The position numbers and the translations under genes were made by a program. From sequence record PZ386975.1: 64,000 nt of DNA; one strand, written 5' to 3'. Below, piece after piece: positions 228 to 35,292 of this stretch. Position 1 is the stretch's first letter. Each line of letters starts with the position of its first letter. Origin of the DNA: a phage. The notes beneath the pieces are model-generated. The model did no database searches. It was given only the letters and a program-made list of their open reading frames with translations, and was not told the DNA's origin.

Positions 228-229
228 TC

Positions 230-1388: not shown

Positions 1389-1399
1389 GAGGGAAAACT

Positions 1400-4109: not shown

Positions 4110-4162
4110 AAGTATATGATAAGAGGCTCCTACGGGAGCCTTTTTAATTTCTGGAGAAAACT

Positions 4163-4498: not shown

Positions 4499-4656
4499 AA
4501 ATTTTACTGTCACTTGGTAGTGTAGCAGTATTTGTTTACCTTCTTTGCAAGTACTATGCAGAGCACAAGAAGTGTGATTACTGCAACGGGGAAGGGTATA
4601 CAAGAGCAGGCTGTTGCCCTATTTGTGGCGGTTCTGGTAAAATGTTTAATAAGTAA
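4480..4656 (+). CDS. small membrane protein (58 aa) with DnaJ-type zinc finger (two CxxCxGxG motifs)
   Basis: ATG 4480 after AGAGGTGAG; hydrophobic N-terminal helix then CDYCNGEG and CPICGGSG; below the 60-aa cutoff of the ORF track. Confidence 0.45.
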   Translation: MQAYWIEILLSLGSVAVFVYLLCKYYAEHKKCDYCNGEGYTRAGCCPICGGSGKMFNK

Positions 4657-4684
4657 TTTAACAGTAAACTAAGAGGAAAGTATT

Positions 4685-7051: not shown

Positions 7052-7130
7052 AGTGTTTGACAAGGGGCTTTGAAGCCCCTTAGAATAGCCTTACAAAATG
7101 ATTTATTAACTAACAAGAGAGAGTAATAAG

Positions 7131-8240: not shown

Positions 8241-8341
8241 TAAGTAATTTCTTAAAAGGCTGCTTCGGCGGCCTTTTTTTATTTGTATTTTGTGCAGAGT
8301 GCTGTATAATTGTTGTCACGATAAACTAAACAGGAGAACCA

Positions 8342-8890
8342 ATGAAGAAATTGATTCTAGGTTTGTGCTTAATGTTTACAGCACACTTATCTTATGCAGT
8401 TGACTGCCCAGAGCTATCAATTAGCCAAAAAGTAAACATGTTAAAAGCTTACCAGTATGGTGAGAATAACATGGGTAAAGGTTGGGGTATCACTCTAGCT
8501 GCTATAGCCTTACAAGAGTCAGAGTTAGGCCTGAATGTAGAGAATAAAAAGACACATGATTATGGTATCTTCCAGAATCACTTGAAGACTGTTGTAAAGC
8601 GTAACAAAATCAGTCCTAATGTGGCTAAAAAGAAACTCTTAAAAGACTTTGACTATGCTGCGAAGGAAACGCACAAAGAGCTTGAGTTTTGGACAAAGGT
8701 GCATGGTCAGCCAAAGTCAAAGAAGACTTTACAAAAAGTTTTAGCATCTTATAATGCTGGGTATTCGTACAAAATCCCTAAAGCTAAGAAATATTCTCAA
8801 GATGTCTATAACAACATGAAAGCGATTGCTCAATGTGAATTTGCAACAAACATTTCTAAGGTAAATCATGAAAAAATTAAGAAAGTCTGA
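8342..8890 (+). CDS. secreted lytic transglycosylase-like (SLT domain) protein with signal peptide
   Basis: N-terminal MKKLILGLCLMFTAHLSYA signal; SLT-like motifs ALQESELG, GIFQ, SYNAGYS. Confidence 0.55.
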   Translation: MKKLILGLCLMFTAHLSYAVDCPELSISQKVNMLKAYQYGENNMGKGWGITLAAIALQESELGLNVENKKTHDYGIFQNHLKTVVKRNKISPNVAKKKLLKDFDYAAKETHKELEFWTKVHGQPKSKKTLQKVLASYNAGYSYKIPKAKKYSQDVYNNMKAIAQCEFATNISKVNHEKIKKV

Positions 8891-9563
8891 TGAAGTATTG
8901 TGCCATGCTTATGACTTACATCCTCATGAGTTAGGTCTTGATTCCTGTGTATGGACTCCAGAACAGTGCAGGGATTTTGAAGACACAGCAAGAGAAGTTG
9001 TATGTTCACTTGAAGAGTTCCACACAACAGAGCCAATTGTGAATGTTGTAGATAAAGAGACTGGACAAGCTATAGGTGTAAGTCGTGACAGCTTATTCAT
9101 AGTCAATAAAGACCTTGTAGAAAAAGGTAACCTCATCTTAGCAGATATTGATGGTGTTCTTACAAATTTTAATCACGAAGATTGTTCAACGGAATTGACT
9201 GATGGTTCATTTTCACAGTACACTAATCTTCTTGACTCTGTAAGAGCAAAACCAACGTATGTTTTCAATATCATTGATGCAATTGCTAATCATGCTGCCG
9301 TTGGACTCTTGACAGCGAGAGGCGAATCTCAGAGAATACCTACTGAGATGTTTTTAAGGCATAACACAGAGCATGATTATATGCTTTTTATGCGTGGTTT
9401 TGGAACTAACTCTATAAGTGCAGAAAGTTTGAAAGTGAGGATGATTCAGTCTTGCATTCTGCCTTACTTTAATATAGTATGTTTTATAGAAGATACAGAG
9501 AAGAATGTGCAGAAGGTGAACAGAATCCTTCCACACATCAAAACCATGTTAGTTAAACATTGA
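8868..9563 (+). CDS. hypothetical protein (231 aa)
   Basis: ORF in co-oriented block. Confidence 0.5.
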   Translation: MKKLRKSDEVLCHAYDLHPHELGLDSCVWTPEQCRDFEDTAREVVCSLEEFHTTEPIVNVVDKETGQAIGVSRDSLFIVNKDLVEKGNLILADIDGVLTNFNHEDCSTELTDGSFSQYTNLLDSVRAKPTYVFNIIDAIANHAAVGLLTARGESQRIPTEMFLRHNTEHDYMLFMRGFGTNSISAESLKVRMIQSCILPYFNIVCFIEDTEKNVQKVNRILPHIKTMLVKH

Positions 9564-9573
9564 GAGAAAACTT

Positions 9574-10038
9574 ATGAACAATATCATTACGGTAGCACTG
9601 GACGTTACGGCAAACAAATCTGAAGTAGTTCGTAACATTATCAAGAGCAACTTTGAGGGTAAAATCTTCCGTGCTGTCAATGTAAAAGCAGACGGCAACA
9701 TCCGAGAGTATCGTGCTCTTTTGAATGTTAAGAAACACGTCAAAGGTTCTGGTTCAACGACTGCACACAAAGAAAACCTGATGACTATCTATGATATGGG
9801 GATGGCCTCAGAATTAGGTGCTGAAGGTATCGTTAAAGAAGGTGCTCCGTACCGCTCTTTCAATCTGGAAACTGCTCTTATGCTTTCCTTTACAAGTGGT
9901 TCTAAAACAACTACTTATCTCTTTACTGATGCTGCAACGGTATCTGCTATCAAGGATGGCACTGTCAAAGCTGGCGTAGTTGCTGCTGCAAAAGCTTCTT
10001 CGATGGCTGCGAATATCCTTGCTAAAGTCCTCAGTTAA
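9574..10038 (+). CDS. hypothetical protein (154 aa)
   Basis: ORF followed by terminator hairpin 10051-10072. Confidence 0.5.
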   Translation: MNNIITVALDVTANKSEVVRNIIKSNFEGKIFRAVNVKADGNIREYRALLNVKKHVKGSGSTTAHKENLMTIYDMGMASELGAEGIVKEGAPYRSFNLETALMLSFTSGSKTTTYLFTDAATVSAIKDGTVKAGVVAAAKASSMAANILAKVLS

Positions 10039-18925: not shown

Positions 18926-18949
18926 AGCCCCTTAAATGGGGCTTTTTTA
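18926..18949 (+). terminator. rho-independent terminator ending the plus-strand early block
   Basis: AGCCCCTTAAATGGGGCT followed by TTTTTT; another hairpin at 18894-18912. Confidence 0.6.
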
Positions 18950-20640
18950 CGTCTATCAAATTCCTTTCCAGAATCTTAAAACCCACCTAACAAGTCAGAA
19001 CTTTACCAATGATTCGATAGAATCTATCTCATACCTTAAAAAGCAATAACTCTATAGTCTACTCTATAGCCTTTTATCAAATCAACTTAAATATAAGCCC
19101 ATAACCCGAAAGGGAAGGGCAACCACTAAAACGCTCTATAAAGCTCTATAACAGCCTTATCAACCTAACTTAATGGATTGCATTAACCCACCTTAAAAAG
19201 CTCTTTACAGGGCTTTATAGAGACTTAAAAGAATCTTATAAGGTTATAAGCTTTATTATCTCGTTAGCTATCTTGTGAACTACTAAAAAGGGCTATGAGA
19301 TAGGACTCTATGAGGGGTAATTCATTACCTGAATCACTATCAAATCCTATTGTTATTGTCTTAAAAGTATGTTATATGGGTTTGAAAGTAGCTTAAAAGT
19401 TACGTAAATGCTAGCCCCCTTAACATTTTCTTAACAATTTCTTAACAAACCCTACATAGCTATGCTTGTTAGCCCCTTGTTAAATTTCTGTTAAGACCAC
19501 GTAAAAGCCTTGTAAGAGTCTTTGGCATAGCCTTAAAAGCCCCTGTAAAGCCCTATAAAGAGCTATCCATACAGTTGAGGGGTAAATACTAGGAAGAGGC
19601 TTAAAAGAGCCTATAAAGAGTTATAGAGAGCTTTTAAAAGGTATGTTTAAGGAATCACTAAGAAAGGAAAGGGAACGATAAGAGAAGAGAGTTGTGTTTG
19701 TAAACAACCACTGTGACCATGTTAACAGCTTGTTAAAAAGATTAAACACTTGTTAGAAGCTTGTTAATTATCTTAATTGGTATTGTTACCAATCCCTAAC
19801 AAAATAACTCTTCAAAATTAACTTGTTAGCTCTTGTTAGTCATCTGTTAAGACTCTGTAAAGCCCTATCAAGCCTTGTTAGAAAACTGTTACAGCCTTGT
19901 TAGTTCTGTTGAGAAACTGTTAAGACCTTTGAAGAATTGTTAAGAAGATGTGAGAATTGTTAAGAGATTGTTAAGGATATTTTAAAATTCTGCAAAGGGG
20001 ATGTTACAGGGATGTTAAGGGCTACCAAGCAGATATACATCTTCTACAGATATTTTTGAGTTCCTTCAAAGACCCTAAAAAAAATGACTTGACAGTCCTA
20101 TTTTATAAAAATTTTAAGATTCTGAATAATTACCTATACAGCCTTTTAAAAATACAGGTAATAACAGGCTTATAAGATACCTTGTTAGTACCGTGTTAGA
20201 CCTTGTGAGATAAGGTCTGTGAAGATATTCCTGTTAAGTTTGTTAAAACAGTCTATATAGAGGCTTAGTAATACCTAGTGAACACCTATAGAGAGTGTCA
20301 TAGCTGACATAGAGATTAAGAGGTGTATAGGAGCTTCTAAGAGGATGTAGAGAGATGGTTAAGGTGATTGTATAGGTTGTTAAGAAGGCTTGTTAGAAGA
20401 GTGTTTAGAAGGATTGTTAGAGGGCTTGTTAGAAGGGTTATACAGAGGGGCTATTAAGACCACTAGATAGTTACTAAGATACTATATAGTACTATATAAC
20501 TATATAGAGAGTAAGATTAAGAAGGTTGTTAAGAAGGGTAAATATTTTATTCACATATGATGGTGACCCAGAGGTTGGGACAACCGATAAAATTTTATAA
20601 AAATTAAAAAGCCCCCAATTAAGGAGGCTCTCAAGATATT
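18950..20640. repeat. 1.7-kb non-coding, AT-rich region with dense short repeats (YTGTTAR iterons at about 11-bp spacing; CTATAAAG/CTTTATAG motifs; ACTATATA repeats)
   Basis: no ORF of 60 aa or more on either strand; about 30 TGTTAR copies, densest at 19800-20030 and 20370-20450. Confidence 0.7.
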
Positions 20641-28455: not shown

Positions 28456-29871
28456 ATGAGCGAATTATTCAAACATGCGCACCTTCATGCAGGTCGAACT
28501 GAAAATGGTGCTGTAAACCATACTTCATCAATGTCTGCTCTTGTAGACTTTTACAAAGCTGCTGGTTCTAGCCGTAGCAATGTAGAAATCTTACCAGACT
28601 TGTTCTACAAAGCTTTGCATGAGGATGTTGATGTTGCAGTTCGTATTTTACTGCATATGCGAGATGTACGAGAAGGTATGGGTGAGCGTAAAGCTTTCCG
28701 AACTGTTTTACTTCAAGCGATTGAAGATAAGATTTTAGAGCCTACACAGGTTCTTCGCATTATGGATAAGATTGCAGAACTTGGTCGTTTTGATGACTTC
28801 AAAATCTTCGTAGGTACTCGTTTTGAGACAGATGCCTTCAAACATTTAGAAGCAGCATTACTAGACCCTGCAACAGCAGGTTTAGCAGCTAAGTGGTTGC
28901 CACGAGTAAAACCACGCCACAAACATTTTGTAAAACGTTTCTGTAAGTTTGCAAACTTAAGCGAGAAAGAGTACCGCACACTGTTATCTGCACTGTCTGA
29001 TACGGTTGAGCAAAAAATCTCTGCTAATGAGTTTGGTAAGATTGACTACAGCAAGATTCCTTCACTCGCTGCTGCACGTTACCAAAAACTCTTTAACCGT
29101 AAAGATGGAGAACGTTACAAAGCTTACATCGAATCACTCTCAAAGGGTGAGGCTAAGATTAACGCTGGTGCTGTTTACCCATACGATGTGATTAAGTCTA
29201 TCAAGCATGGTAATGCAGATGTTGCCAATGAGCAGTGGAAAGCACTACCAAACTGGATGGCAGAAGGTGAGAACATTCTGTGTATGACCGATGTTTCAAG
29301 CTCAATGTCTTGGGTGAATCTTGGTTCAATCACTGCCCTTGATATTGGTGTATCACTTGCCTTGTATGTAGCAGAACGCAATACTGGTTGTTTTAAGAAT
29401 GAGTTAATGGTTTACTCAACAAACCCTCACTTCATCGAACTGAGTGGTGATTTACGAAACCGTCATCGTCAGGTGATGCGTCATGTTGAATATGGCTCAA
29501 CTAACTTACAAGCAGCTTTTGACCGTATTCTTGAGATAGGTAAAAGAAACAACTTGACTCAGAAAGATATGCCAAGTAAGCTTATCATCTTCTCCGATAT
29601 GGAGTTCAATCAGGTTGATGGTGCTAACGGTCGTACAAACTTTGAAGCAATTCAGAGTAAGTACAAAAAAGCTGGATATGAGATGCCACAACTGGTATTC
29701 TGGTACTTAGCAAACCGTAATGGCACTTGCGAAGTATCTGTTAAGGATAACGGTGTAGCAATGGTATCTGGTTTCTCTCCAGCCACTTTAAAAGCTCTGC
29801 TTGGTGGTGAGAAGTTTGACCCAATCAGCGTAATGCTCAAAGCAGTAATGATTGACCGTTATATCTGGTAA
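28456..29871 (+). CDS. vWA-domain protein with helical N-terminal region (Ro60/TROVE-vWA-like architecture)
   Basis: MIDAS-like DxSxS motif (CMTDVSSSMS) at about aa 275; 471 aa; upstream of the tRNA/structured-RNA cluster. Confidence 0.5.
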   Translation: MSELFKHAHLHAGRTENGAVNHTSSMSALVDFYKAAGSSRSNVEILPDLFYKALHEDVDVAVRILLHMRDVREGMGERKAFRTVLLQAIEDKILEPTQVLRIMDKIAELGRFDDFKIFVGTRFETDAFKHLEAALLDPATAGLAAKWLPRVKPRHKHFVKRFCKFANLSEKEYRTLLSALSDTVEQKISANEFGKIDYSKIPSLAAARYQKLFNRKDGERYKAYIESLSKGEAKINAGAVYPYDVIKSIKHGNADVANEQWKALPNWMAEGENILCMTDVSSSMSWVNLGSITALDIGVSLALYVAERNTGCFKNELMVYSTNPHFIELSGDLRNRHRQVMRHVEYGSTNLQAAFDRILEIGKRNNLTQKDMPSKLIIFSDMEFNQVDGANGRTNFEAIQSKYKKAGYEMPQLVFWYLANRNGTCEVSVKDNGVAMVSGFSPATLKALLGGEKFDPISVMLKAVMIDRYIW

Positions 29872-29888: not shown

Positions 29889-29917
29889 ATTGACAATGTG
29901 TTTGATACCCTTTAATA
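29889..29917 (+). promoter_or_regulatory. near-consensus sigma70-like promoter (TTGACA-17-TAATAT) embedded in a palindrome AAAGGGTAT..ATACCCTTT
   Basis: -35 at 29889-29894, -10 at 29912-29917; second candidate with TTGACA at 29981. Confidence 0.5.
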
Positions 29918-30036
29918 TGTTCTACATAGAAACGAAATGAGAGCTTTTCTAAGATACTGAAAAATATTTTAAAAAAGTTCTTGACAACCACTAAAAAATA
30001 ATGTTAAAGTGGTTACATAGAGTTTGAAAAGTTTAT

Positions 30037-30113
30037 CTCTGTTTAGCTCAGCTTGGTAGAGCGTTCCGTTTGGGGCGGTAAGGCCGGAGGTTCAAGTCCT
30101 CCAACAGAGACCA
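30037..30113 (+). tRNA. tRNA-Pro (anticodon UGG)
   Basis: acceptor CTCTGTT/AACAGAG, T-arm GGAGGTTCAAGTCCTCC, encoded CCA. Confidence 0.6.
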
Positions 30114-30130
30114 AATTTAAAGGGGTTACT

Positions 30131-30487
30131 ATGAGATTTTTAAAAGAATGTCCAGTTCATGGTTTAACTGAACATAGCATTCATAAGAATGGTAACGCCG
30201 GTAATAGAGTAAATTGTCTAAAATGTTGTGCATTAAGGACAAAACTTAGAGAGGATGCCAATAGGGAGAAAGCATACAAGTTTTATGGCGATAGTTGCAA
30301 AATTTGTGGCTATAATAAATGTAAAAATGCTTTAGAATGGCATCACCTTAACCCAAACGAAAAAGAGAATACACCATCAAAAATTATGGGTGCATCTTGG
30401 GAAAAGGTTAAAAAAGAACTTGATAAATGTGTTTTGCTCTGTGCTAATTGCCACAGAGAGGTTCATAGTGGAATTACAACGGTTTAA
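30131..30487 (+). CDS. HNH endonuclease
   Basis: Cys-rich Zn motifs (CLKCC, CKICG) and WHHLNPNEK...CANCHREVH HNH core; start moved to ATG 30131 because the track ORF overlaps tRNA-Pro. Confidence 0.75.
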   Translation: MRFLKECPVHGLTEHSIHKNGNAGNRVNCLKCCALRTKLREDANREKAYKFYGDSCKICGYNKCKNALEWHHLNPNEKENTPSKIMGASWEKVKKELDKCVLLCANCHREVHSGITTV

Positions 30488-30488
30488 T

Positions 30489-30563
30489 GTCGTAGAAGGC
30501 AAATGGTTAGCCACCTGACCTTCAATCAGTTGCTCGCAGGTTCGAATCCTGTCTACGACACCA
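30489..30563 (+). tRNA. tRNA, anticodon uncertain (loop CCTTCAA, possibly UUC/Glu)
   Basis: acceptor GTCGTAG/CTACGAC, T-arm GCAGGTTCGAATCCTGT, CCA. Confidence 0.45.
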
Positions 30564-30567
30564 GTTT

Positions 30568-30646
30568 TGACAGAAGACCAATTACAGCAAACTTAATCTT
30601 ATTCATCTGAAGGTAAATCGGACAAAGAAGAGATTTGGTCTGGTCA
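30568..30646 (+). ncRNA. structured RNA element Y1: conserved bulged helix (outer 4 bp TGAC/GTCA, internal loop AGA opposite G, inner AGACCAA/TTGGTCT)
   Basis: inverted repeat with covarying outer helix; shares motif CAGAAGACC..TACAGCAA with three paralogs. Confidence 0.4.
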
Positions 30647-30655
30647 TTAAGAATT

Positions 30656-30731
30656 GCGGGTATAGAGAAAGGGCGTCTCACATGTCTCATTAGCATGGTA
30701 TCGGCAGGTTCGACTCCTGCACCCGCCTCCA
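30656..30731 (+). tRNA. tRNA with anticodon CAU (Met or Ile2)
   Basis: anticodon stem CATGT/GCATG with loop CTCATTA; T-arm GCAGGTTCGACTCCTGC; acceptor has one mismatch. Confidence 0.45.
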
Positions 30732-30734
30732 ATT

Positions 30735-30800
30735 TTGCAGAAGACCGTATTCAGCAACAAACTACTTTTTGCGGATAAAAGAAAAAACACGGTCTGGCAA
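30735..30800 (+). ncRNA. structured RNA element Y2 (outer TTGC/GCAA, inner AGACCGT/ACGGTCT)
   Basis: same bulged-helix architecture as Y1 with compensatory changes. Confidence 0.4.
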
Positions 30801-30808
30801 TGTATTAA

Positions 30809-30885
30809 GGTTAGGAAGCACATAAGGTATGTGCGGTCGCCTGTTAAGCGAATGGCACAGGGTTCGAATCCCTGACTAACCGCCA
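30809..30885 (+). tRNA. tRNA-Asn (GUU)
   Basis: anticodon loop CTGTTAA, T-arm CAGGGTTCGAATCCCTG, G73, CCA. Confidence 0.55.
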
Positions 30886-30954
30886 AATTTAGGAGAGAAG
30901 CGATTGCTCACCGATTTGTAAGGTGCAAGTCCTTAGCCTGAATAGAAATTAAAT

Positions 30955-31042
30955 GTGTCGTTATCCCGTAGATGGTAGCGGTGGGGACTGTAAATCCCTT
31001 GTCATTGAGACTCGGTAGGTTCGACTCCTACACGGCACACCA
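30955..31042 (+). tRNA. tRNA-Tyr (GUA), long variable arm
   Basis: anticodon arm GGGGACTGTAAATCCCT; 88 nt; acceptor GTGTCGT/ACGGCAC. Confidence 0.6.
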
Positions 31043-31047
31043 ATAAA

Positions 31048-31125
31048 GGTTATGTAGTTTAATTTGGTTAAAATACTCCCCTGTCACGGGAGATGATGAG
31101 GGTTCAAATCCCTTCGTAACCGCCA
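31048..31125 (+). tRNA. tRNA-Asp (GUC)
   Basis: anticodon stem CTCCC/GGGAG with loop CTGTCAC; CCA. Confidence 0.6.
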
Positions 31126-31151
31126 ATTTTGAGAGGGCTATTTAGCCCCTC

Positions 31152-31186
31152 CCTTAAAGGGTTCTTACGAGTATCCTTTAAAGGAG
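31152..31186 (+). repeat. conserved palindromic hairpin CCTTAAAGGGTTCTTACGAGTATCCTTTAAAGG
   Basis: related copies at 34182-34208 and 32003-32030. Confidence 0.5.
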
Positions 31187-31265
31187 CAGAAGACCAAATA
31201 CAGCAAGAACGTATGAAAATTTCAAGCCAATTTAATTTTGAAAAATTTAAAACTTGGTCTGGCTC
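31184..31265 (+). ncRNA. structured RNA element Y3 (outer GAGC/GCTC, inner AGACCAA/TTGGTCT)
   Basis: same bulged-helix architecture. Confidence 0.4.
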
Positions 31266-31272
31266 AACAAAT

Positions 31273-31409
31273 TTACAGAAGACCGTTTACAGCAAAACTT
31301 AAACAATCTATTTCTCGGTAAAGAAAAGGCGAAGGTTCGATTCCTTCACTCGGCAGATGTCGAGTTGGTGTAATGGTAGCACTTAAGATGATAAACAACG
31401 GTCTGGTAA
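31273..31409 (+). ncRNA. structured RNA element Y4 (outer TTAC/GTAA, inner AGACCGTT/AACGGTCT) enclosing a circularly permuted tRNA-like module; Y-RNA/YrlA-like candidate
   Basis: T-arm GAAGGTTCGATTCCTTC (31331-31347), then 3' acceptor strand ACTCGGC, 5-nt linker, 5' acceptor strand GTCGAGT and D-arm TGGTGTAATGGTAGCAC. Confidence 0.45.
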
Positions 31410-31553
31410 TTATCTTTGTAGATAAGTTATTAAGCTTACCTGTGAGTATGCGACCACAAAGGGTGAAAGGGTAAATTCTAGATTTAAACCCAAAAAGGCA
31501 CATCGCTACAGACCTTAAGCAAGTCTGGGTAGCTTATCTACAAAGATAATTTA
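31405..31553 (+). repeat. 19-bp perfect inverted repeat TAATTATCTTTGTAGATAAG / CTTATCTACAAAGATAATT flanking about 108 nt
   Basis: arms at about 31405-31425 and 31534-31553, between Y4 and tRNA-Lys. Confidence 0.55.
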
Positions 31554-31555
31554 AT

Positions 31556-31631
31556 GGAAGTGTAGCAGAATGGTGATGCGGCAGACTTTTAATCTGACAG
31601 GCGATGGGTTCGAATCCCTCCACTTCTACCA
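31556..31631 (+). tRNA. tRNA-Lys (UUU)
   Basis: anticodon loop CTTTTAA; acceptor GGAAGTG/CACTTCT; paralog of tRNA at 32785. Confidence 0.5.
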
Positions 31632-31635
31632 AAAT

Positions 31636-31712
31636 GGTTCAGTCGCAGATAAGGTAATTCAAGGGTCTCATAAGACCTATGAATGTGGGTTCGATTCCCA
31701 TCTGAACCTCCA
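31636..31712 (+). tRNA. tRNA with anticodon CAU (Met or Ile2)
   Basis: acceptor GGTTCAG/CTGAACC, loop CTCATAA, T-arm GTGGGTTCGATTCCCAT. Confidence 0.5.
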
Positions 31713-31714
31713 AT

Positions 31715-31789
31715 TGTGGGTTAGCATAAATGGTAATGCAAACGGCTGATAACCGTTAGAAGAGGGTTCGATACCCTCACCTACAACCA
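31715..31789 (+). tRNA. tRNA-Ile (GAU)
   Basis: D-stem GCAT/ATGC, anticodon stem AACGG/CCGTT with loop CTGATAA. Confidence 0.6.
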
Positions 31790-31804
31790 ATTTCAATAAA
31801 GTTG

Positions 31805-31833
31805 TTGACATTGAGATGTGACTACTTTATAGT
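31805..31833 (+). promoter_or_regulatory. sigma70-like promoter TTGACA-17-TATAGT inside the tRNA cluster
   Basis: -35 at 31805-31810, -10 at 31828-31833. Confidence 0.5.
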
Positions 31834-32036
31834 AACCTTAGTTTTCGTTGCGTAGCGTCTATTTTGCAAATTTAAAATAAATGCAAACGACAATGTTTTT
31901 CTGGCAGTAGCTTGATAGGCTAAACACCAGTGAGGTCTTCCAATCCCTCATCAAAGAATTTGGCGTACTAGCCCACGGTATGATTAATAAAGTGGGCATC
32001 TTTAAGGGCTTTCTAAGAGAGTCTTTAAAGATTAAT

Positions 32037-32113
32037 GCACCCTTAGTTCAATTGGATAGAGCAACGGTCTTCTAAATCGTTAGTTACAGGTTCGAATCCT
32101 GTAGGGTGTACCA
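32037..32113 (+). tRNA. tRNA-Arg (UCU)
   Basis: anticodon loop CTTCTAA, T-arm ACAGGTTCGAATCCTGT. Confidence 0.6.
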
Positions 32114-32256
32114 ATTTAGTTAGCAGAATACTTAGACGACCTAAGCGGGTCTTCCTGTAGGGAGGTGGTCTGTATCTCATGTTTTCCAGAACATGTAAAT
32201 AATCTGAGAAGGGGCTTTACAGTGTTGAGATAATACGGTAAGCTTCGAATTATAGT

Positions 32257-32339
32257 ATGGGACGATGTTAAGACTCTAAGGCATGAGCAACGGATTCCAA
32301 CACCGTTTCAAAGGGGTTCAACTCCTCCGTCCCATGCCA
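32257..32339 (+). tRNA. atypical tRNA (83 nt, enlarged D region), anticodon possibly CCA (Trp)
   Basis: acceptor ATGGGAC/GTCCCAT perfect; anticodon region AACGG-ATTCCAACA-CCGTT. Confidence 0.4.
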
Positions 32340-32352
32340 AAGTCTTATTAGG

Positions 32353-32442
32353 GGTAGGTAGCGGCTAATGGTAGCCAAACTGTCTTGAAAACAGTTGCCA
32401 CTGTAGAGATACGGTGAGGGTTCGACTCCTTTACTTACCGCC
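32353..32442 (+). tRNA. tRNA-Ser (UGA), long variable arm
   Basis: anticodon stem ACTGT/ACAGT with loop CTTGAAA; 90 nt. Confidence 0.55.
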
Positions 32443-32698
32443 TAATAAGATTTTAAAGCCAAGCTTCATTCGGATGTTGCTTTGGTATCCCTCGTGTATT
32501 GTCGTACACACAGATAAAGCACCTAGTAGGTGTCACGGAGAAGAGATAATATCAAGCTCTCCAAAGGTTCTAGTCACCGGATTAAACAAGACTATGCAAA
32601 GACCTTTTTAGGTCTTTTTAGAGGGCTTCTAAGGTTATTACAGCTTGTTGTGGAACCTTGTTGCTTAGGTTCTTAGAAGTTCTCTAAAAAGATTTAAT

Positions 32699-32777
32699 GG
32701 GAGATTGACGGCAACTTGGTAGACCTATCTCGCTTAGAACGAGATGCTTGAGGGTTCGAATCCCTTGTCTCCTACCA
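32699..32777 (+). tRNA. tRNA with anticodon UAG (Leu-type) but short variable arm
   Basis: anticodon stem TCTCG/CGAGA with loop CTTAGAA; T-arm GAGGGTTCGAATCCCTT. Confidence 0.45.
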
Positions 32778-32784
32778 AATTAAT

Positions 32785-32860
32785 GCAGGTGTAGCAAAAT
32801 GGTTATGCGGCTGACTCTTAATCAGTAAGACGATGGGTTCAATTCCCTCCACCTGTACCA
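32785..32860 (+). tRNA. tRNA-Lys (CUU)
   Basis: anticodon loop CTCTTAA; paralog of 31556. Confidence 0.5.
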
Positions 32861-32866
32861 GACATT

Positions 32867-32943
32867 GGGGATGTAGTTTACATGGTTAAAACATAAGTTT
32901 TGCAAACTTAAGTACAGGGTTCAATTCCCTGCTTCTCCACCAA
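32867..32943 (+). tRNA. tRNA-Ala (UGC)
   Basis: D-stem GTTT/AAAC, anticodon stem TAAGT/ACTTA with loop TTTGCAA. Confidence 0.55.
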
Positions 32944-32949
32944 TTAGTG

Positions 32950-33023
32950 CATCCATAGTTTAAACGGGAAAATTACAGTCTTCCAAACTGAGGTTGAGGG
33001 TTCGATTCCCTCTGGATGCTCCA
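32950..33023 (+). tRNA. tRNA-Gly (UCC)
   Basis: acceptor GCATCCA/TGGATGC perfect; loop CTTCCAA. Confidence 0.55.
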
Positions 33024-33029
33024 AACAAT

Positions 33030-33106
33030 GCTGCTTTCGTATAATTGGCTATTACACATCCCTTGTAAGGATGGAAATGCAGGTTCGAGTCCTGTGAGCA
33101 GCACCA
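33030..33106 (+). tRNA. tRNA-Thr (UGU)
   Basis: anticodon stem CATCC/GGATG with loop CTTGTAA. Confidence 0.6.
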
Positions 33107-33109
33107 ATT

Positions 33110-33170
33110 CAGAGGTCAAGTGAAAGACCGCTGGTGTCAACTGAAGACCGTAACAAATTCCACGGAGTTG
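33110..33170 (+). ncRNA. fifth, more divergent stem-loop element containing the GAAGACCGT motif
   Basis: outer inverted repeat AGAGGTC/GACCTCT enclosing ..CTGAAGACCGTAACAAA.. Confidence 0.3.
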
Positions 33171-33201
33171 AGTTAGCGGCACAACTTCAGACCTCTTTCA
33201 T

Positions 33202-33276
33202 ACTCGCTTAGTTTATATGGTAAAACACCACCCTTACAAGATGAAGAAAAAGGTTCAAGTTCTTTAGTGAGTACCA
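33202..33276 (+). tRNA. tRNA, anticodon uncertain (loop CTTACAA, possibly UAC/Val)
   Basis: acceptor ACTCGCT/AGTGAGT, D-stem GTTT/AAAC; weak anticodon stem. Confidence 0.4.
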
Positions 33277-33277
33277 T

Positions 33278-33355
33278 GTTCCAGTATCCCAATTGGCAGA
33301 GGATGCAAGCTCAAACCTTGTACTAGTGACGGTTCGAATCCGTCTTGGAACACCA
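33278..33355 (+). tRNA. tRNA with anticodon CAA (Leu-type) but short variable arm
   Basis: anticodon stem GCAAG/CTTGT with loop CTCAAAC; T-arm GACGGTTCGAATCCGTC. Confidence 0.45.
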
Positions 33356-33374
33356 ATTTTAAGAGGCTATTTAG

Positions 33375-33932
33375 ATGAGATACTTAAAGTATGCTTCATG
33401 GATTTTCTTAGCTTTGTTAGAGCCATTTGCAGCAATCTTAGCAGTTATCTTAGCACCTTTTGTAGTTCCATTCTACAGTGAGAAGAAAGGACACTTACCT
33501 TTCGGGTTCAGATGGATGGAGACATATGACAACCCAATTGATGGTGATGAAGGTCACGTTAAAAGATGGGCTAATATTAGATGGATTGGTAAGCTGGGTG
33601 TCTACATGCAGAGAGTTGGATGGCTCTGGAGAAACAAAGCTTATAATTTCTCTTACCATGTATTAGGAAGAGATGTAAAAGATGTTACTAAGTGGAAAGG
33701 TAATATCAACGTAAGTTCTGACCCTGAAGATAATCAGACTGGTTATCTCCTAATGTGGAACAGTAATGCTTGGGGATTATTCGCTTTTATTCCGTCAATT
33801 AAAATCTTTGGTAAACAGTTTTACTGGAGAATTTATGTTGGATGGAAACTAAAAAGTGTTGTCCCAGAAGAAAGAGCATTCTCAAGGGAAAGAGTTATGT
33901 TGGCATTCTTTATTCATCCGCTGAGAAAGTAA
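33375..33932 (+). CDS. hypothetical integral membrane protein (185 aa) embedded in the tRNA cluster
   Basis: RBS AAGAGG; N-terminal hydrophobic helices; Trp-rich. Confidence 0.55.
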   Translation: MRYLKYASWIFLALLEPFAAILAVILAPFVVPFYSEKKGHLPFGFRWMETYDNPIDGDEGHVKRWANIRWIGKLGVYMQRVGWLWRNKAYNFSYHVLGRDVKDVTKWKGNINVSSDPEDNQTGYLLMWNSNAWGLFAFIPSIKIFGKQFYWRIYVGWKLKSVVPEERAFSRERVMLAFFIHPLRK

Positions 33933-33940
33933 AGATTTAA

Positions 33941-34016
33941 AGGGGATTAGTTTACAAGGTTAAAACCTCGGTCTTTGAAATCGAAGAAGTTGGTTCAATT
34001 CCAACATCCCCCGCCA
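33941..34016 (+). tRNA. tRNA-Gln (UUG)
   Basis: anticodon loop CTTTGAA; weak 1-72 pair. Confidence 0.55.
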
Positions 34017-34018
34017 AT

Positions 34019-34096
34019 GCTCCATTACTCCAATTGGCAGAGAGGCCAGACTTAAAATCTGTGTTATGTATCGGTTCGAATCCGATATGGAGTACC
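34019..34096 (+). tRNA. tRNA with anticodon UAA (Leu-type) but short variable arm
   Basis: anticodon loop CTTAAAA; T-arm ATCGGTTCGAATCCGAT. Confidence 0.45.
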
Positions 34097-34101
34097 AATT
34101 T

Positions 34102-34177
34102 TAGCGGTATAGCATAACTGGCAATGCAACAGTCTCTGAAGCTGTCCTATTAAGGTTCAAATCCTTATGCCGCTGCC
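34102..34177 (+). tRNA. tRNA-Gln (CUG)
   Basis: D-stem GCAT/ATGC, anticodon stem ACAGT/GCTGT with loop CTCTGAA. Confidence 0.55.
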
Positions 34178-34209
34178 ACTTCTAAGGATTCTTACGAGAG
34201 TCCTTAAAT

Positions 34210-34285
34210 GTGGCCTTATCATAAATGGTAATGACCCATGCTGTGAACATGGTCTATACGGGTTCGACTCCCGTAGGTCACCCCA
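34210..34285 (+). tRNA. tRNA-His (GUG)
   Basis: anticodon stem CCATG/CATGG with loop CTGTGAA; discriminator C73. Confidence 0.6.
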
Positions 34286-34291
34286 ATTTAT

Positions 34292-34367
34292 AGTCCAAGT
34301 AGCTTATATGGTTAAAGCGCGTGTCTGAAAAACATGAGAAGAGGGTTCAAATCCCACTGGACTACCA
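34292..34367 (+). tRNA. tRNA-Phe (GAA)
   Basis: D-stem GCTT/AAGC, anticodon loop CTGAAAA; acceptor boundaries approximate. Confidence 0.5.
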
Positions 34368-34383
34368 ATTTCAAAGGTGCTTA

Positions 34384-35118
34384 ATGAAAGAGATGACAGA
34401 ACAAGGTAAGGAGATTTTTAATCTCTTAAAAACCGGTAAAGGGTTTTCTAACCCACTTATTACTGGTGCAGCAGTTCTCGGTGGAACCGTAGCTGCCTCT
34501 ACATCACTTGTAAGCTCCATTAGCTCTGTAACAGACCCTACAATGAAGGAGAAGCTTGTTGCTGCTGGACTTACAACAGTCCTTCTAAACAGCTTTACAA
34601 CAAGCCTGACAAGCACTACAGCAACTACTAAGACCCTAACAGACTATGGTCAAAAGTCTATTGATGAGTTTTCATCACGTATGCAGGTAGCAAAGGGGTA
34701 TTCCAATGTTATGGGTGCAGCAGGAGAACAAGTTGGTTGTACACCATTCAGTGGTATTATGGGTGTTGCTACAGAGTATGGTCAAAAAGCTATTGACATG
34801 ATGAACAGTACACTAGATAGTGTTAACGGTGTGTTAAGTGACTTACAAGACGCTATTGATAAGGGTCTTGCTACTGTTTCTGATTTAGCTAATCAGGCTG
34901 TTAGTAAGATTAATGAAGGTATCTCAAAGATTACAGCTTATGCAGATGAAGTTGTGCAGATGATTGAAGAAGAAGCTGCCCTTATTGCAGAGTACCTTAA
35001 AACGAATATCAATGGGTTCTTAGCAGGTATCTTACCAGACTGGTTTGATGATGCTTGTAAAACTGGTGTAATCGACACTATTGCAACACCAGAAATGAAG
35101 AACGCATTACAGAAATAA
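34384..35118 (+). CDS. hypothetical Ser/Thr/Ala-rich protein (244 aa)
   Basis: start moved to ATG 34384 (RBS AGGTG) because the track ORF start overlaps tRNA-Phe. Confidence 0.5.
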   Translation: MKEMTEQGKEIFNLLKTGKGFSNPLITGAAVLGGTVAASTSLVSSISSVTDPTMKEKLVAAGLTTVLLNSFTTSLTSTTATTKTLTDYGQKSIDEFSSRMQVAKGYSNVMGAAGEQVGCTPFSGIMGVATEYGQKAIDMMNSTLDSVNGVLSDLQDAIDKGLATVSDLANQAVSKINEGISKITAYADEVVQMIEEEAALIAEYLKTNINGFLAGILPDWFDDACKTGVIDTIATPEMKNALQK

Positions 35119-35119
35119 T

Positions 35120-35212
35120 GGAAGATTAACCCTAAAAGGTAAGGGAGCAGTTTGCTAAACTGCCAGTAGCTGAGAAATCGGTGTACCAGTTCAAGTCTGG
35201 TATCTTCCTCCA
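35120..35212 (+). tRNA. tRNA-Ser (GCU), long variable arm
   Basis: acceptor GGAAGAT/ATCTTCC, anticodon stem GCAGT/ACTGC with loop TTGCTAA; 93 nt. Confidence 0.6.
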
Positions 35213-35216
35213 ATTT

Positions 35217-35292
35217 GAATCCGTGACAGAAATGGATATGTGCCTGTCTGCAAAACAGGTTTATAAGGGTTCAAGTCCCTTCGGATTCTCCA
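35217..35292 (+). tRNA. tRNA-Cys (GCA)
   Basis: acceptor GAATCCG/CGGATTC perfect, anticodon stem CCTGT/ACAGG with loop CTGCAAA, U73, CCA. Confidence 0.65.

What the first reader, a model, noticed from the sequence alone, without database searches (positions are those of the whole stretch)
31331..31385. Circularly permuted tRNA-like module inside element Y4
A canonical T-arm (GAAGG-TTCGATT-CCTTC) is followed by a 3' acceptor strand ACTCGGC, a 5-nt linker, then the complementary 5' acceptor strand GTCGAGT (seven pairs, one G-U) and a D-arm (GTGT-AATGGTA-GCAC). The acceptor stem is closed by a loop and the tRNA order is permuted, so no normal tRNA can be drawn. This matches tRNA-mimicking YrlA-type Y RNAs, where the anticodon-stem position is replaced by the Ro-binding helix.
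Basis: partly seen in the sequence, partly recalled or inferred. Interest (0 to 1): 0.8.

Follow-up and report, generated by a model that had tools for sequence, protein, structure and literature searches.

The report
Phage Y RNA mimicking a tRNA
A 137-base non-coding RNA between the tRNA genes of a Felix O1-type phage folds into a tRNA look-alike on a conserved stem, just downstream of a phage protein with the Ro60 ring fold, so it is most likely a phage "Y RNA": a known kind of RNA, but from a branch that had not been described.

Summary
At 31331-31382 (+) there is a canonical T-arm, then a closed 7-bp acceptor-like hairpin, then U-G and a canonical D-arm. The loop is 4 nt, not 5. This descriptor matches once in the 64-kb window, against 0.03 expected.

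The module lies inside a 137-nt element, Y4 (31273-31409). Y4 shares a basal stem and a UUACAGCAA loop with three simpler paralogues (Y1-Y3). All four lie in spacers of a Felixounavirus tRNA array.

The gene 1.4 kb upstream on the same strand (28456-29871; Pfam DUF2828/DUF7788) is predicted to have the Ro60 fold. It is 98% identical to Bas63 gp130.

All helices are kept, with compensatory changes, across three phage genera. A model built from Y4 finds full-length homologues in distant phages, beside their DUF2828 genes. The basal motif lies on the gene's strand 59 times against 1 on the opposite strand in 71 loci. A sister genus examined over 19.6 kb lacks both the gene and the RNAs.

Y4 has the YrlA architecture but is not a member of Rfam YrlA. 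It gets no hit, and it has ACAGCAA where YrlA has GNCGAA.

Verdict: a new variant of a known kind. Binding to the protein and function are inferred, not shown.

The parts
28456..29871 (+). Gene for a 471-aa Ro60-fold protein (helical repeat ring plus vWA domain with DxSxS); the proposed protein partner
   Evidence: Pfam DUF7788 1.9e-43, DUF2828 1e-29, weak VWA_2; no TROVE hit. AF2 model pLDDT 85, pTM 0.85. The top 10 Foldseek PDB hits are all Ro60/Rsr/TROVE, E 5e-8 to 2e-6, TM 0.5-0.62 over about 525 columns. 98% identical to Bas63 gp130.
29890..30010 (+). Two sigma-70-like promoters upstream of tRNA-Pro; likely start of the transcript that carries the tRNAs and Y1-Y4
   Evidence: TTGACA-17-TAATAT at 29890-29918 and TTGACA-18-TAAAGT with TG at 29981-30010. 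No + strand terminator-like site between 29913 and 34441, and none with a convincing T-tract until 35455. Consensus matches only.
30567..30649 (+). Y1: paralogous element with the same basal module and a non-tRNA-like interior
   Evidence: Outer helix UGAC/GUCA, inner helix AGACCAA/UUGGUCU, UUACAGCAA loop. R1 hit of 38.8 bits.
30735..30803 (+). Y2: paralogous element with the same basal module
   Evidence: Outer helix UUGC/GCAA, inner helix AGACCGU/ACGGUCU, AUUCAGCAA loop. R1 hit of 44.8 bits.
31183..31266 (+). Y3: paralogous element with the same basal module
   Evidence: Outer helix GAGC/GCUC, inner helix AGACCAA/UUGGUCU, AUACAGCAA loop.
31273..31409 (+). Y4: the whole element, a basal module enclosing the tRNA-like domain
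   Evidence: MFE fold. Conserved in 252 phage records. Model R1 built from it finds distant full-length homologues.
31273..31287 (+). Y4 basal module, 5' side: outer helix UUAC (31273-76), AGA internal loop (31277-79), inner helix AGACCGUU (31280-87)
   Evidence: Pairs with 31397-31409. The outer and inner helices differ among Y1-Y4 with compensating partners. 91.7-91.9% of cells paired in A4.
31288..31296 (+). Conserved loop UACAGCAAA (CAGCAA at 31290-95); the proposed protein-recognition motif
   Evidence: Present in all four paralogues. Present next to DUF2828 genes in LeBron, P100, Los1, P778 and metagenomic phages. Strand bias 59:1.
31311..31326 (+). Variable-arm-like hairpin UUUCU / CGGUAA / AGAAA
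   Evidence: Replaced by a different hairpin (CUUUCA/UGAGAG) in Maleficent. Kept, with a different sequence, in L056, L084 and L031.
31331..31347 (+). T-arm GAAGG-UUCGAUU-CCUUC
   Evidence: 97.5% of cells paired, and 4 of 5 pairs have double changes, in A4.
31348..31365 (+). Closed acceptor-like stem (AS): ACUCGGC-AGAU-GUCGAGU
   Evidence: Three fully different but complementary versions in close relatives. 7 of 7 pairs have double changes in A4.
31366..31382 (+). U8-G9 linker and D-arm GUGU-AAUGGUA-GCAC
   Evidence: Invariant in Ounavirinae. 100% paired in A4.
31388..31409 (+). Y4 basal module, 3' side: A-rich loop (31388-96), inner helix AACGGUCU (31397-404), G (31405), outer helix GUAA (31406-09)
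   Evidence: An A-rich tract before the 3' strand and a G after it recur in other phages.

Best explanation
Y4 (31273-31409, + strand) is a phage-encoded, YrlA-type Y RNA. It is a modular non-coding RNA whose 5' and 3' ends pair into a basal stem: a 4-bp outer helix, an AGA/G internal loop, an 8-bp inner helix, then an internal loop with UUACAGCAA on the 5' side and an A-rich tract on the 3' side. The distal part is a circularly permuted tRNA mimic: variable arm, T-arm, an acceptor-like stem closed by a tetraloop, U8, and D-arm.

Shown here: the structure, its conservation and covariation, its three simpler paralogues (Y1-Y3), and the tight strand- and position-linkage of the basal motif to genes of one protein family with the Ro60 fold.

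Inferred, step 1. Y1-Y4 are co-transcribed with the tRNA array from the promoters at 29890/29981. They are cut out by the tRNA-processing enzymes. Y1 and Y2 start 4-5 nt after a tRNA's CCA and end about 5 nt before the next tRNA.

Inferred, step 2. The Ro60-fold protein encoded at 28456-29871 binds the basal stem and ACAGCAA loop of each Y RNA.

Inferred, step 3. As in bacterial Ro60-Y RNA particles, the variable distal module sets what the particle does. Y4's tRNA-like elbow and acceptor would present the ring to tRNA-recognising factors, or gate and tether it to them. Candidates are RNase P, TruB, DusA, the CCA-adding enzyme, exoribonucleases such as PNPase, and tRNA repair or decay enzymes. 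The particle would then act on the phage's or host's tRNA pool during infection.
For: Structure
- The sequence features are at the stated coordinates and occur once per window, against 0.03 expected.
- The MFE fold gives all arms.
- After re-permutation, with the variable region shortened, ARAGORN draws a cloverleaf.

Conservation
- Y4 is present in 252 phage records.
- In three genera the acceptor-like stem has three unrelated but fully complementary sequences: ACTCGGC/GTCGAGT, ACACGT/GCGTGT and ACCCTTC/GAAGGGT.
- There is no conserved reading frame.

Deep homologues
- Model R1 was built from Ounavirinae only. It finds full-length matches in phages whose Ro-like proteins are 40-47% identical: L056 59 bits (E 1e-8), L084 58 bits, L031 52 bits, plus L043, L008, L058, L012 and L091.
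- 31 of 32 hits are on the gene's strand.
- On that alignment 93.9% of cells are paired, against 66% when shuffled and about 40% when slid. 28 of 33 pairs show double changes.

Paralogues
- Four elements share CAGAAGACCnnUUnCAGCAA.
- Both their helices covary.

Linkage to the protein
- A descriptor taken from other phages hits the window exactly four times, at Y1-Y4; shuffles give a mean of 0.61.
- In 71 loci the descriptor matches 59 times on the gene strand against 1 on the opposite strand. 50 of the 59 lie within 500 nt of the gene.
- LeBron, P100, Los1 and P778 carry 2-3 copies beside the gene.
- Kolesnikvirus SeKF_13, syntenic and with an intact tRNA array, has neither the gene nor any Y element in the 19.6 kb examined.

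Protein
- Ro60 fold.
- Invariant DxSxS MIDAS motif.

Link to YrlA
- The LeBron counterpart scores 39.8 bits (E 1.5e-7) on Rfam YrlA, through its T, AS and D part.

Literature
- YrlA architecture, adjacency to Ro60, several Y RNAs per locus, and processing from one precursor (PMC4201824).
- Thermus phage Ro60 binds two adjacent Y-like RNAs and host PNPase (PMC12135203).
- Bas63 gp130 is Ro60-like, and its authors guessed that Y RNAs lie among the tRNAs (PMC11482910).
- A Listeria phage homologue lies within 2 kb of highly transcribed non-coding regions (PMC12282133).
Against: - No expression, end-mapping or binding data exist for Y4.
- The Rfam YrlA model gives no hit on Y4, even at E<=10.
- The YrlA GNCGAA motif is absent.
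- The protein has no TROVE Pfam hit, and its profile matches Ro60 sequences only at E 0.3.
- The junction between the basal stem and the tRNA-like domain (the 'anticodon stem') is not conserved.
- Thermodynamic z-scores are weak, -1.3 to -2.1.
- The A4 alignment is fitted to the model, which inflates the pair counts.
- Bas63 gp130 alone, expressed in T7 or from a plasmid, rescued plating on the Ppl defence strain (PMC11482910). At least that activity does not need the phage's Y RNAs.
- Only 38 of 71 loci have a strict motif within 1.5 kb of the gene.
Confidence: 0.75

Rival explanations
1. A cis-acting processing or 'punctuation' element of the tRNA operon. The tRNA-like fold recruits RNase P, RNase Z/E or the CCA-adding enzyme to help cut the polycistronic precursor. 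It has no dedicated protein partner and no function as a free RNA.
For: The element lies inside a tRNA array with no terminators between the tRNAs. It has a 7-bp acceptor-like stem, the RNase P determinant noted for M. smegmatis YrlA (PMC4201824). Other long hairpins also punctuate the array.
Against: This does not explain the conserved ACAGCAA basal module shared with three elements that are not tRNA-like. It does not explain the 59:1 strand-linked association of that module with DUF2828 genes, including in loci without an adjacent tRNA array such as LeBron. The sister genus Kolesnikvirus processes a denser tRNA array without any such element.
Confidence: 0.1
2. A decoy or sponge acting on its own. 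The tRNA elbow and acceptor mimic would titrate a host tRNA-targeting defence nuclease or a tRNA-modifying enzyme, independently of the Ro-like protein.
For: Phage tRNAs are known counter-defence tools (cited in PMC11482910). The T- and D-loops keep the elbow-forming residues.
Against: There is no anticodon loop, which is the target of the known anticodon nucleases. The linkage of the basal motif to the Ro-fold gene is left unexplained. There is no evidence for any partner.
Confidence: 0.07
3. A permuted or split tRNA-like (or tmRNA-like) gene. The hairpin loop would be cut by RNase P, the 3' strand trimmed and given CCA, and the resulting two-piece molecule aminoacylated.
For: The gene order (T-arm, 3' acceptor, 5' acceptor, D-arm) is that of permuted tRNA and two-piece tmRNA genes. 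In 5 of 13 distinct homologous modules the hairpin loop begins with NCCA directly after a 7-nt 3' strand: Maleficent, L031 (twice), L058 and L084. The chance of that is about 1e-6. M. smegmatis YrlA is cleaved and gains CCA (PMC4201824).
Against: The window copy has a 4-nt loop, AGAU, with no CCA. It has no anticodon arm, no tag reading frame and no pseudoknots. Rfam tmRNA_permuted gives no hit on Y4. Cleavage would in any case be compatible with the Y RNA reading.
Confidence: 0.05
4. A non-functional remnant of rearranged or decayed tRNA genes: the 3' part of one tRNA next to the 5' part of another.
For: It lies in a tRNA array invaded by HNH endonuclease genes. Tandem tRNAs are the known false positives of YrlA searches (PMC4201824). 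One such false positive appears at 34231-34353.
Against: The two 'halves' are complementary to each other across a 4-nt loop and covary across genera. The whole 137-nt architecture is recovered at E 1e-8 in unrelated phages. The element is kept at 95-99% identity in about 210 genomes.
Confidence: 0.03

Closest known systems
YrlA (Rfam RF02553; Chen, Sim, Wurtmann, Feke & Wolin 2014, PMC4201824)
   Same: The order of modules is the same: basal stem, variable arm, T-arm, closed acceptor-like stem, UA/UG, D-arm, basal stem. Both have tRNA-invariant T- and D-loop residues. Both are encoded within a few kb of a Ro60-fold gene on the same strand. Both are accompanied by further, non-tRNA-like Y RNAs.
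   Different: Y4 gets no RF02553 hit (E>10). It has a UUACAGCAA loop instead of GNCGAAN0-1G. It has a long 16-nt variable hairpin. The junction stem is not conserved. The neighbouring protein is DUF2828/DUF7788, not Pfam TROVE. Y4 sits in tRNA-array spacers.
M. smegmatis YrlA/YrlB
   Same: A 7-bp acceptor-like stem. Several Y RNAs processed from one precursor. Relatives of Y4 encode NCCA at the start of the hairpin loop, which fits RNase P cleavage and a CCA end.
   Different: The window copy has a 4-nt loop without CCA. Cleavage is untested.
Thermus phage phiLo Ro60 with Yrl1/Yrl2 (PMC12135203; PDB 9KOP, 9L5Y)
   Same: A phage-encoded Ro60-fold protein with adjacent stem-bulge-stem Y-like RNAs on the same strand. 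9KOP is the top structural match of the window protein.
   Different: phiLo Ro60 is a TROVE protein. Its RNAs carry the CGAA motif. No tRNA-like domain is mentioned in the passages I read. Binding was shown experimentally there, not here.
Bas63 gp130 (PhageMaP preprint, PMC11482910)
   Same: It is the same protein (98% identity) in the same position upstream of the tRNA array. The authors noted its Ro60-like structure and guessed that Y RNAs exist.
   Different: They suggested that some annotated tRNA genes are the Y RNAs. The elements found here lie between the tRNA genes. In Bas63, Y4 is overlapped by an annotated opposite-strand CDS, bas63_0137.
Metazoan Y RNAs and D. radiodurans Yrn1
   Same: Modular design: the terminal stem with a conserved internal loop or bulge is the Ro site, and the variable distal part is the effector site.
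   Different: A different conserved sequence. No sequence or covariance-model similarity.
Permuted tRNA genes (Cyanidioschyzon) and two-piece tmRNA genes (Rfam RF04321)
   Same: The 3' half of the tRNA-like domain is encoded upstream of the 5' half.
   Different: Y4 has no anticodon arm, no bulge-helix-bulge motif, no tag ORF or pseudoknots, and no RF04321 hit.

Membership tests
YrlA (Rfam RF02553) | Covariance-model score at or above the gathering threshold (69 bits) | tested here: not met
   No RF02553 hit on 31130-31555 even at E<=10 with permissive filters. The LeBron counterpart scores 39.8 bits, also below threshold.
YrlA (Rfam RF02553) | T-arm, closed acceptor-like stem and D-arm in that order, with tRNA-invariant loop residues | tested here: met
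   Sequence read directly. Unique descriptor match. Covariation.
YrlA (Rfam RF02553) | GNCGAAN0-1G motif in the 5' strand of the Ro-binding module (PMC4201824) | tested here: not met
   The 5' side reads CAGAAGACCGUUUACAGCAAA. The conserved motif of this class is (U)UACAGCAAW.
YrlA (Rfam RF02553) | Encoded within about 4 kb of a Ro60 orthologue, on the same strand | tested here: met
   Y4 starts 1.4 kb downstream of 28456-29871, on the same strand. The protein has the Ro60 fold, though no TROVE Pfam hit.
YrlA (Rfam RF02553) | Bound by Rsr/Ro60; carries pseudouridine-55 and dihydrouridine; substrate of tRNA enzymes | not testable with these tools
   Needs RIP or EMSA, modification mapping, and RNase P / CCA-adding assays.
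Y RNA (functional class) | 5' and 3' ends pair into a stem with a conserved internal loop or bulge, plus a variable distal module | tested here: met
   The basal module is shared by Y1-Y4 with different interiors. The same design is seen in LeBron, P100, Los1, P778 and metagenomic loci.
Canonical tRNA | Cloverleaf with an anticodon arm, detected by tRNA finders | tested here: not met
   Not called by ARAGORN or Rfam tRNA. Only a local T-arm hit of 14.9 bits. A cloverleaf appears only after artificial re-permutation, an added anticodon loop and a shortened variable region.
Two-piece (permuted) tmRNA, Rfam RF04321 | Model hit, tag reading frame, pseudoknots | tested here: not met
   No RF04321 hit on Y4. 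The element is 137 nt with stops in every frame.
Ro60 / TROVE protein family (for the neighbouring gene) | Pfam TROVE domain (sequence level) | tested here: not met
   Pfam gives DUF2828, DUF7788 and weak VWA_2 only. The family profile against PDB sequences matches Ro60 at E 0.3, which is not significant.
Ro60 / TROVE protein family (for the neighbouring gene) | Helical-repeat ring plus C-terminal vWA domain with a MIDAS motif (fold level) | tested here: met
   The top 10 Foldseek PDB hits are all Ro60, Rsr or phage Ro60, over the full length. D279, S281 and S283 are invariant in 32 homologues.

The most novel reading that the evidence does not exclude
Y1-Y4 and their relatives are the RNA subunits of a phage-wide, undescribed ribonucleoprotein family: the DUF2828/DUF7788 Ro-like ring plus 'ACAGCAA-loop' Y RNAs. 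The family occurs in phages of Proteobacteria, Firmicutes, Actinobacteria and Campylobacterota. Its distal modules range from plain hairpins, to permuted tRNA mimics, to whole embedded tRNA bodies. Some are cut at an encoded NCCA to give two-piece molecules that may be chargeable. On this reading the particle is a phage tool for tRNA surveillance, repair or counter-defence, and the RNAs programme what the ring acts on.
Probability: 0.35. Interest if true: 0.8.

Novelty: new variant of a known kind. Interest (0 to 1): 0.62.

Why it matters
Ro60-Y RNA particles are understood in only a few bacteria. What the tRNA-like domain of YrlA does is still an open question. This finding gives that question a tractable phage system. 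Felix O1 and Bas63 are easy to grow and engineer. The protein (gp130) already has a phenotype: it counters the Ppl defence and improves T7 growth.

The finding also corrects the guess that some of the annotated tRNA genes are the Y RNAs. The Y RNAs are the spacers between tRNA genes, and they are partly mis-annotated as small opposite-strand proteins.

It defines a recognisable motif: a stem, then UUACAGCAAW, an A-rich tract, and the closing stem followed by G. That motif links hundreds of phage DUF2828 genes to candidate RNA partners. It probably also explains the unannotated, highly expressed RNAs reported next to the homologue in a Listeria phage. Rfam has no family for it.

Tried and rejected
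- **Rfam, gathering and E<=10 scans of the window and the sub-region:** no family covers Y1-Y4. The YrlA hit at 34231-34353 is the known tandem-tRNA artefact, tRNA-His to tRNA-Phe.
- **ARAGORN on the native sequence, and on re-permuted constructs with the natural 28-nt variable region:** nothing found.
- **Single-sequence and profile searches of the protein against PDB sequences:** not significant; Ro60 at E 0.3. Only the fold comparison was decisive.
- **The window's CTTAA/TTAAG 'anticodon stem':** rejected as a conserved feature. The 5' strand changes without compensation in Suspvirus and Mooglevirus.
- **Thermodynamic stability as evidence:** z-scores of -1.3 to -2.1 are too weak to use.
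- **A lenient helix+CAGCAA scan:** not discriminating, since 43 of 69 sites in the window had some 6-bp partner. It was replaced by a stricter descriptor with shuffle and opposite-strand controls.
- **Protein-coding reading (ORFs 31129-31302 on + and 31273-31503 on -):** rejected. There are stops in nearly every frame across homologues, and indels that are not multiples of three.
- **Some R1 hits are probably tandem-tRNA artefacts** and were not counted as evidence: L058:5939-6076, L095:6058-6138, window 31713-31828.
- **Literature:** I found no description of these RNAs in the held library. The 2020 Annual Review on bacterial Ro60 could not be read.
Full report
**1. What the window is**

The window is from a Felix O1-type myophage (Ounavirinae, Felixounavirus). 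The 6 kb around the finding is 96% identical to Salmonella phage Meda and Escherichia phage nataliec. A tRNA array of 24-25 genes runs on the + strand from 30037 to 35292. The terminase and portal genes follow it.

**2. The observation**

- T-arm GAAGG-TTCGATT-CCTTC, 31331-47.
- Hairpin ACTCGGC-AGAT-GTCGAGT, 31348-65, with seven pairs including one G-U.
- Linker TG.
- D-arm GTGT-AATGGTA-GCAC, 31368-82.

The only corrections are a 4-nt loop (not 5) and an end at 31382. The T-loop and D-loop carry the tRNA-invariant residues.

A descriptor of this arrangement matches the 64-kb window once on both strands. The mean in 100 dinucleotide shuffles was 0.03. This is also the only tRNA-type T-arm on the + strand that is not in a tRNA gene. 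No tRNA finder calls it.

After artificial re-permutation, ARAGORN draws a cloverleaf. It does so only if an anticodon loop is supplied and the 28-nt variable region is shortened.

**3. The element around it**

The module sits inside a 137-nt element, 31273-31409. From the outside in, the 5' side reads:
- outer helix UUAC;
- an AGA loop;
- inner helix AGACCGUU;
- a conserved loop UACAGCAAA;
- an AU-rich linker;
- a variable-arm hairpin (31311-26);
- the T, AS and D arms.

The 3' side reads: an A-rich tract, AACGGUCU, G, GUAA.

Three more elements in the array share the 5' signature CAGAAGACCnnUUnCAGCAA and the 3' signature nnGGUCUGG: Y1 30567-30649, Y2 30735-30803 and Y3 31183-31266. Both helices differ among the four copies, with compensating partners:
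- outer helix: UGAC/GUCA, UUGC/GCAA, GAGC/GCUC, UUAC/GUAA;
- inner helix: ..AA/UU.., ..GU/AC.., ..GUU/AAC...

Only Y4 carries the tRNA-like insert.

Y1 and Y2 begin 4-5 nt after the CCA of one tRNA and end about 5 nt before the next tRNA. Ordinary tRNA processing would therefore release them. Two sigma-70-like promoters lie upstream of the array. No + strand terminator-like site lies between 29913 and 34441, and none with a convincing T-tract until 35455. This transcription and processing scheme is inference.

**4. Conservation**

Y3-Y4 DNA is found in 252 phage records. All four elements are present in Felixounavirus, Suspvirus and Mooglevirus.

In an ordinary MAFFT alignment of Y4 from these genera, the T- and D-arms are invariant. 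The acceptor-like stem takes three unrelated but fully complementary forms:
- ACTCGGC-AGAT-GTCGAGT;
- ACACGT-TACG-GCGTGT;
- ACCCTTC-GCCAAACA-GAAGGGT.

The variable arm of Maleficent is a different hairpin. The 5-bp CTTAA/TTAAG stem of the window is not kept in the other genera, so I do not count it as part of the structure. No reading frame is conserved.

**5. The neighbouring protein**

The gene 28456-29871 lies on the same strand, 1.4 kb upstream of Y4 and directly upstream of the array. It encodes a 471-aa protein with Pfam DUF2828, DUF7788 and a weak vWA match, and no TROVE match.

Sequence searches against solved structures are not significant.

An AlphaFold model built on 32 homologues has pLDDT 85 and pTM 0.85. 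It shows a helical N-terminal part and an alpha/beta C-terminal domain. Its ten best Foldseek matches in the PDB are all Ro60 proteins over the full length, with E 5e-8 to 2e-6 and TM 0.5-0.62: Thermus phage phiLo, Xenopus, human, and Deinococcus Rsr. After these come only isolated vWA domains. The MIDAS DxSxS residues are invariant in the family.

The protein is 98% identical to Bas63 gp130. The PhageMaP preprint describes gp130 as structurally Ro60-like and as a counter to the Ppl defence. Its authors guessed that some of the tRNA genes downstream might be Y RNAs (PMC11482910). They did not identify any RNA.

In Bas63, Y4 lies at L094:16772-16918 (162 bits). An annotated opposite-strand 'hypothetical protein', bas63_0137, overlaps it.

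**6. A wider class**

The protein family is large: 2826 homologues at E<=1e-5 and 710 phage records. It includes the mycobacteriophage 'Ro-like RNA binding proteins', Listeria P100-like phages, Campylobacter, Vibrio, Aeromonas, Staphylococcus, Enterococcus and Bacillus phages.

Next to the gene and on its strand I found the same design: a stem, then 1-4 nt, then CAGCAA(A/U), an A-rich tract, the closing strand and a G.
- LeBron: three copies just downstream of the gene.
- P100: three copies just upstream, behind a strong promoter.
- Campylobacter Los1: two copies.
- Yersinia P778: two copies.
- Most of 65 IMG/VR loci.

With a strict descriptor the count is 59 on the gene strand against 1 on the other strand in 71 loci (615 kb). 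50 of the 59 lie within 500 nt of the gene, and 38 of 71 loci have at least one within 1.5 kb. The same descriptor, which owes nothing to the window, hits the window exactly four times, at Y1-Y4, against 0.61 expected.

Kolesnikvirus SeKF_13 is a sister genus with the same synteny and an intact tRNA array. In the 19.6 kb examined it has neither the gene nor any Y element. I did not check the rest of that genome.

**7. tRNA-like members of the class**

LeBron's middle element has the same permuted module: GCGGG-TTCGATT-CCCGT, CGCCACC-CTA-GGTGGTG, TA, GTTC-AATGGCA-GAAC. It scores 39.8 bits (E 1.5e-7) on Rfam YrlA through that module. The basal part mismatches the model.

A covariance model (R1) built only from the seven Ounavirinae Y4 sequences finds full-length matches in distant phages: L056 59 bits (E 1e-8), L084 58 bits, L031 52 bits, then L031 (two more), L043, P778, L058, L084, LeBron and L091. 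31 of 32 hits are on the gene strand.

On the resulting alignment:
- 93.9% of cells are paired, against 66% in shuffles and about 40% with slid partners;
- 28 of 33 pairs show changes on both sides;
- every helix, including the basal ones, covaries.

That alignment is fitted to the model, so these numbers lean towards the structure. The unfitted evidence is in section 4.

No Rfam family covers these elements in 21 loci scanned. The one exception is L084:6352-6413, where the tRNA model matches positions 5-66. That element has a whole tRNA body in normal order mounted on the ACAGCAA stem. The class therefore mounts different tRNA-derived modules on one basal stem.

In 5 of 13 distinct permuted modules the hairpin loop starts with NCCA directly after the 7-nt 3' strand: Maleficent, L031 (twice), L058 and L084. 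The chance of this is about 1e-6. It recalls M. smegmatis YrlA, which RNase P cuts and which gains CCA (PMC4201824). The window copy, with loop AGAU, does not have this feature.

**8. Mechanism**

What is shown:
- the structure;
- its selection, seen as conservation and covariation;
- its paralogy with Y1-Y3;
- its linkage to a Ro60-fold gene.

What is known from other systems:
- Ro60 binds the terminal stem of Y RNAs.
- The distal module gates the ring or tethers it to an effector such as PNPase.
- YrlA's distal module is a tRNA mimic that TruB and DusA modify (PMC4201824).
- A Thermus phage Ro60 binds two adjacent Y-like RNAs and forms complexes with host PNPase (PMC12135203).

From these I infer that the window's protein binds the stem and ACAGCAA loop of Y1-Y4. 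I also infer that Y4's tRNA-like domain directs or gates the particle towards tRNA-recognising factors or tRNA substrates.

Two facts limit this:
- gp130 alone rescued T7 on the Ppl strain, so that activity does not need the Y RNAs.
- No expression or binding data exist for Y4 itself.

The Listeria phage CKA15 homologue lies within 2 kb downstream of three highly transcribed non-coding regions and was found in virions (PMC12282133). This fits the three P100 elements, and perhaps the neighbouring ROOL-like RNA. I could not map the coordinates.

**9. Comparison and novelty**

Y4 works like, and is built like, YrlA. It fails two defining tests of that family, the Rfam model and the GNCGAA motif. 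Its partner protein fails the TROVE sequence test while passing the fold test.

I therefore file it as a new variant of a known kind: a YrlA-like Y RNA of a distinct, phage-borne branch that pairs with DUF2828/DUF7788 Ro-like proteins. The held literature contains the guess (PMC11482910, PMC12282133) but not the RNAs, the motif or the class.

The rival readings leave the basal motif and its gene linkage unexplained, or the covariation contradicts them:
- a processing signal;
- a free decoy;
- a split tRNA or tmRNA;
- a decayed tRNA remnant.

Noticed in passing
window 31407-31555 (+): A 149-nt structure closed by a perfect stem of about 24 bp (TAATTATCTTTGTAGATAAG.. / ..CTTATCTACAAAGATAATTA). 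MFE -48.3 kcal/mol, z -7.2. It starts inside Y4's outer helix and ends at tRNA-Lys. It contains a mini-hairpin CAGAC-CUUAAGCAA-GUCUG-GG that resembles the Y basal motif. The segment is missing or replaced in some relatives, where blastn matches stop at query position 296. In Bas63 it is overlapped by the tiny annotated CDS bas63_0138.
   Followed up: partly
window 32254-32340 (+): A tRNA-like cloverleaf that neither ARAGORN nor Rfam calls. It has an 8-10-bp acceptor stem (AUGGGACG/CGUCCCAU) followed by G-CCA, a 9-nt 'anticodon' loop AUUCCAACA, an odd D region and a GGGGUUCAACUCCUC T-arm. Relatives annotate 'tRNA-OTHER' genes in this array.
   Followed up: partly
window 31155-31185, 31997-32032, 32608-32697, 34180-34207 (+): A family of near-perfect hairpins with related sequence (..UUAAAGGGUUCUUACGAGUAUCCUUUAA.. 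and variants), placed just before tRNAs or Y3. Folds of the stretches that contain them give z -3.6 (32560-32700) and z -4.6 (31900-32036). They may be RNase III-type processing sites. Not analysed.
   Followed up: no
window 33111-33196 (+): A structured spacer between tRNA-Thr and tRNA-Val, closed by AGAGGUC/GACCUCU. MFE -30.7 kcal/mol, z -3.3. It contains GAAGACCG-like words but no CAGCAA motif.
   Followed up: no
window 30037-30560 (+): An HNH-endonuclease ORF (30053-30487) starts inside tRNA-Pro and separates it from a tRNA at 30489-30560. Rfam finds that tRNA (55 bits) but ARAGORN does not; it is tRNA-Glu in relatives that lack the insertion.
   Followed up: no
window 31732-31915 and 31805-31833 (+): A weak Rfam tmRNA_permuted match (32.5 bits, E 8e-4, below the gathering score) overlaps tRNA-Ile and the spacer after it. 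The best promoter-like site of the region (TTGACA-17-TATAGT, 11/12) lies inside it.
   Followed up: no
L013 (Listeria phage P100) 3426-3977 and 4615-4889: A ROOL-like RNA (86 bits, E 8e-16, just below the gathering score of 99) lies immediately upstream of the three ACAGCAA-loop elements and the DUF2828 gene, all on one strand. Together these may be the 'three highly transcribed regions' of the related phage CKA15 (PMC12282133).
   Followed up: partly
L009 (Vibrio phage ValKK3) 4964-4990; the same in L030: In schizoT4-like Vibrio phages the motif AGACAUU-UUACAGCAAU sits in the 5' leader of the DUF2828 gene itself, behind a promoter, with its possible 3' partner inside the coding region. This could be autoregulation of the gene by its own product, or chance.
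   Followed up: no
L084 6324-6432; L087 6187-6319: Elements with the ACAGCAA basal stem that enclose an almost complete tRNA body in normal order (D-arm, anticodon arm, T-arm). The basal stem takes the place of the acceptor stem. Rfam tRNA matches model positions 5-66 at 55.7 bits.
   Followed up: partly
L006/L025/L026 (Maleficent, Moogle), L031 3373-3513 and 3747-3885, L058 6150-6292, L084 6436-6534: In these Y4-type elements the loop of the acceptor-like hairpin begins with NCCA directly after the 7-nt 3' strand. This is as if the RNA were made to be cut by RNase P and to expose a CCA end.
   Followed up: partly
L095 (Salmonella phage SeKF_13, Kolesnikvirus) 1-19599: A syntenic region with a denser tRNA array. 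It has no Ro-like gene (no tblastn hit), no CAGCAA in the array and no full-length R1 hit. The gene and the Y elements are absent together. Only 19.6 kb of the genome was examined.
   Followed up: partly
L032 3129-3236, L033 2098-2200, L036 3703-3809: Another recurrent distal module on the same basal stem..GAACCUUUCCGGAGGGGAAAGCAAAAACUCGCCAAAA.. It is shared by three unrelated metagenomic phages. Nature unknown.
   Followed up: no
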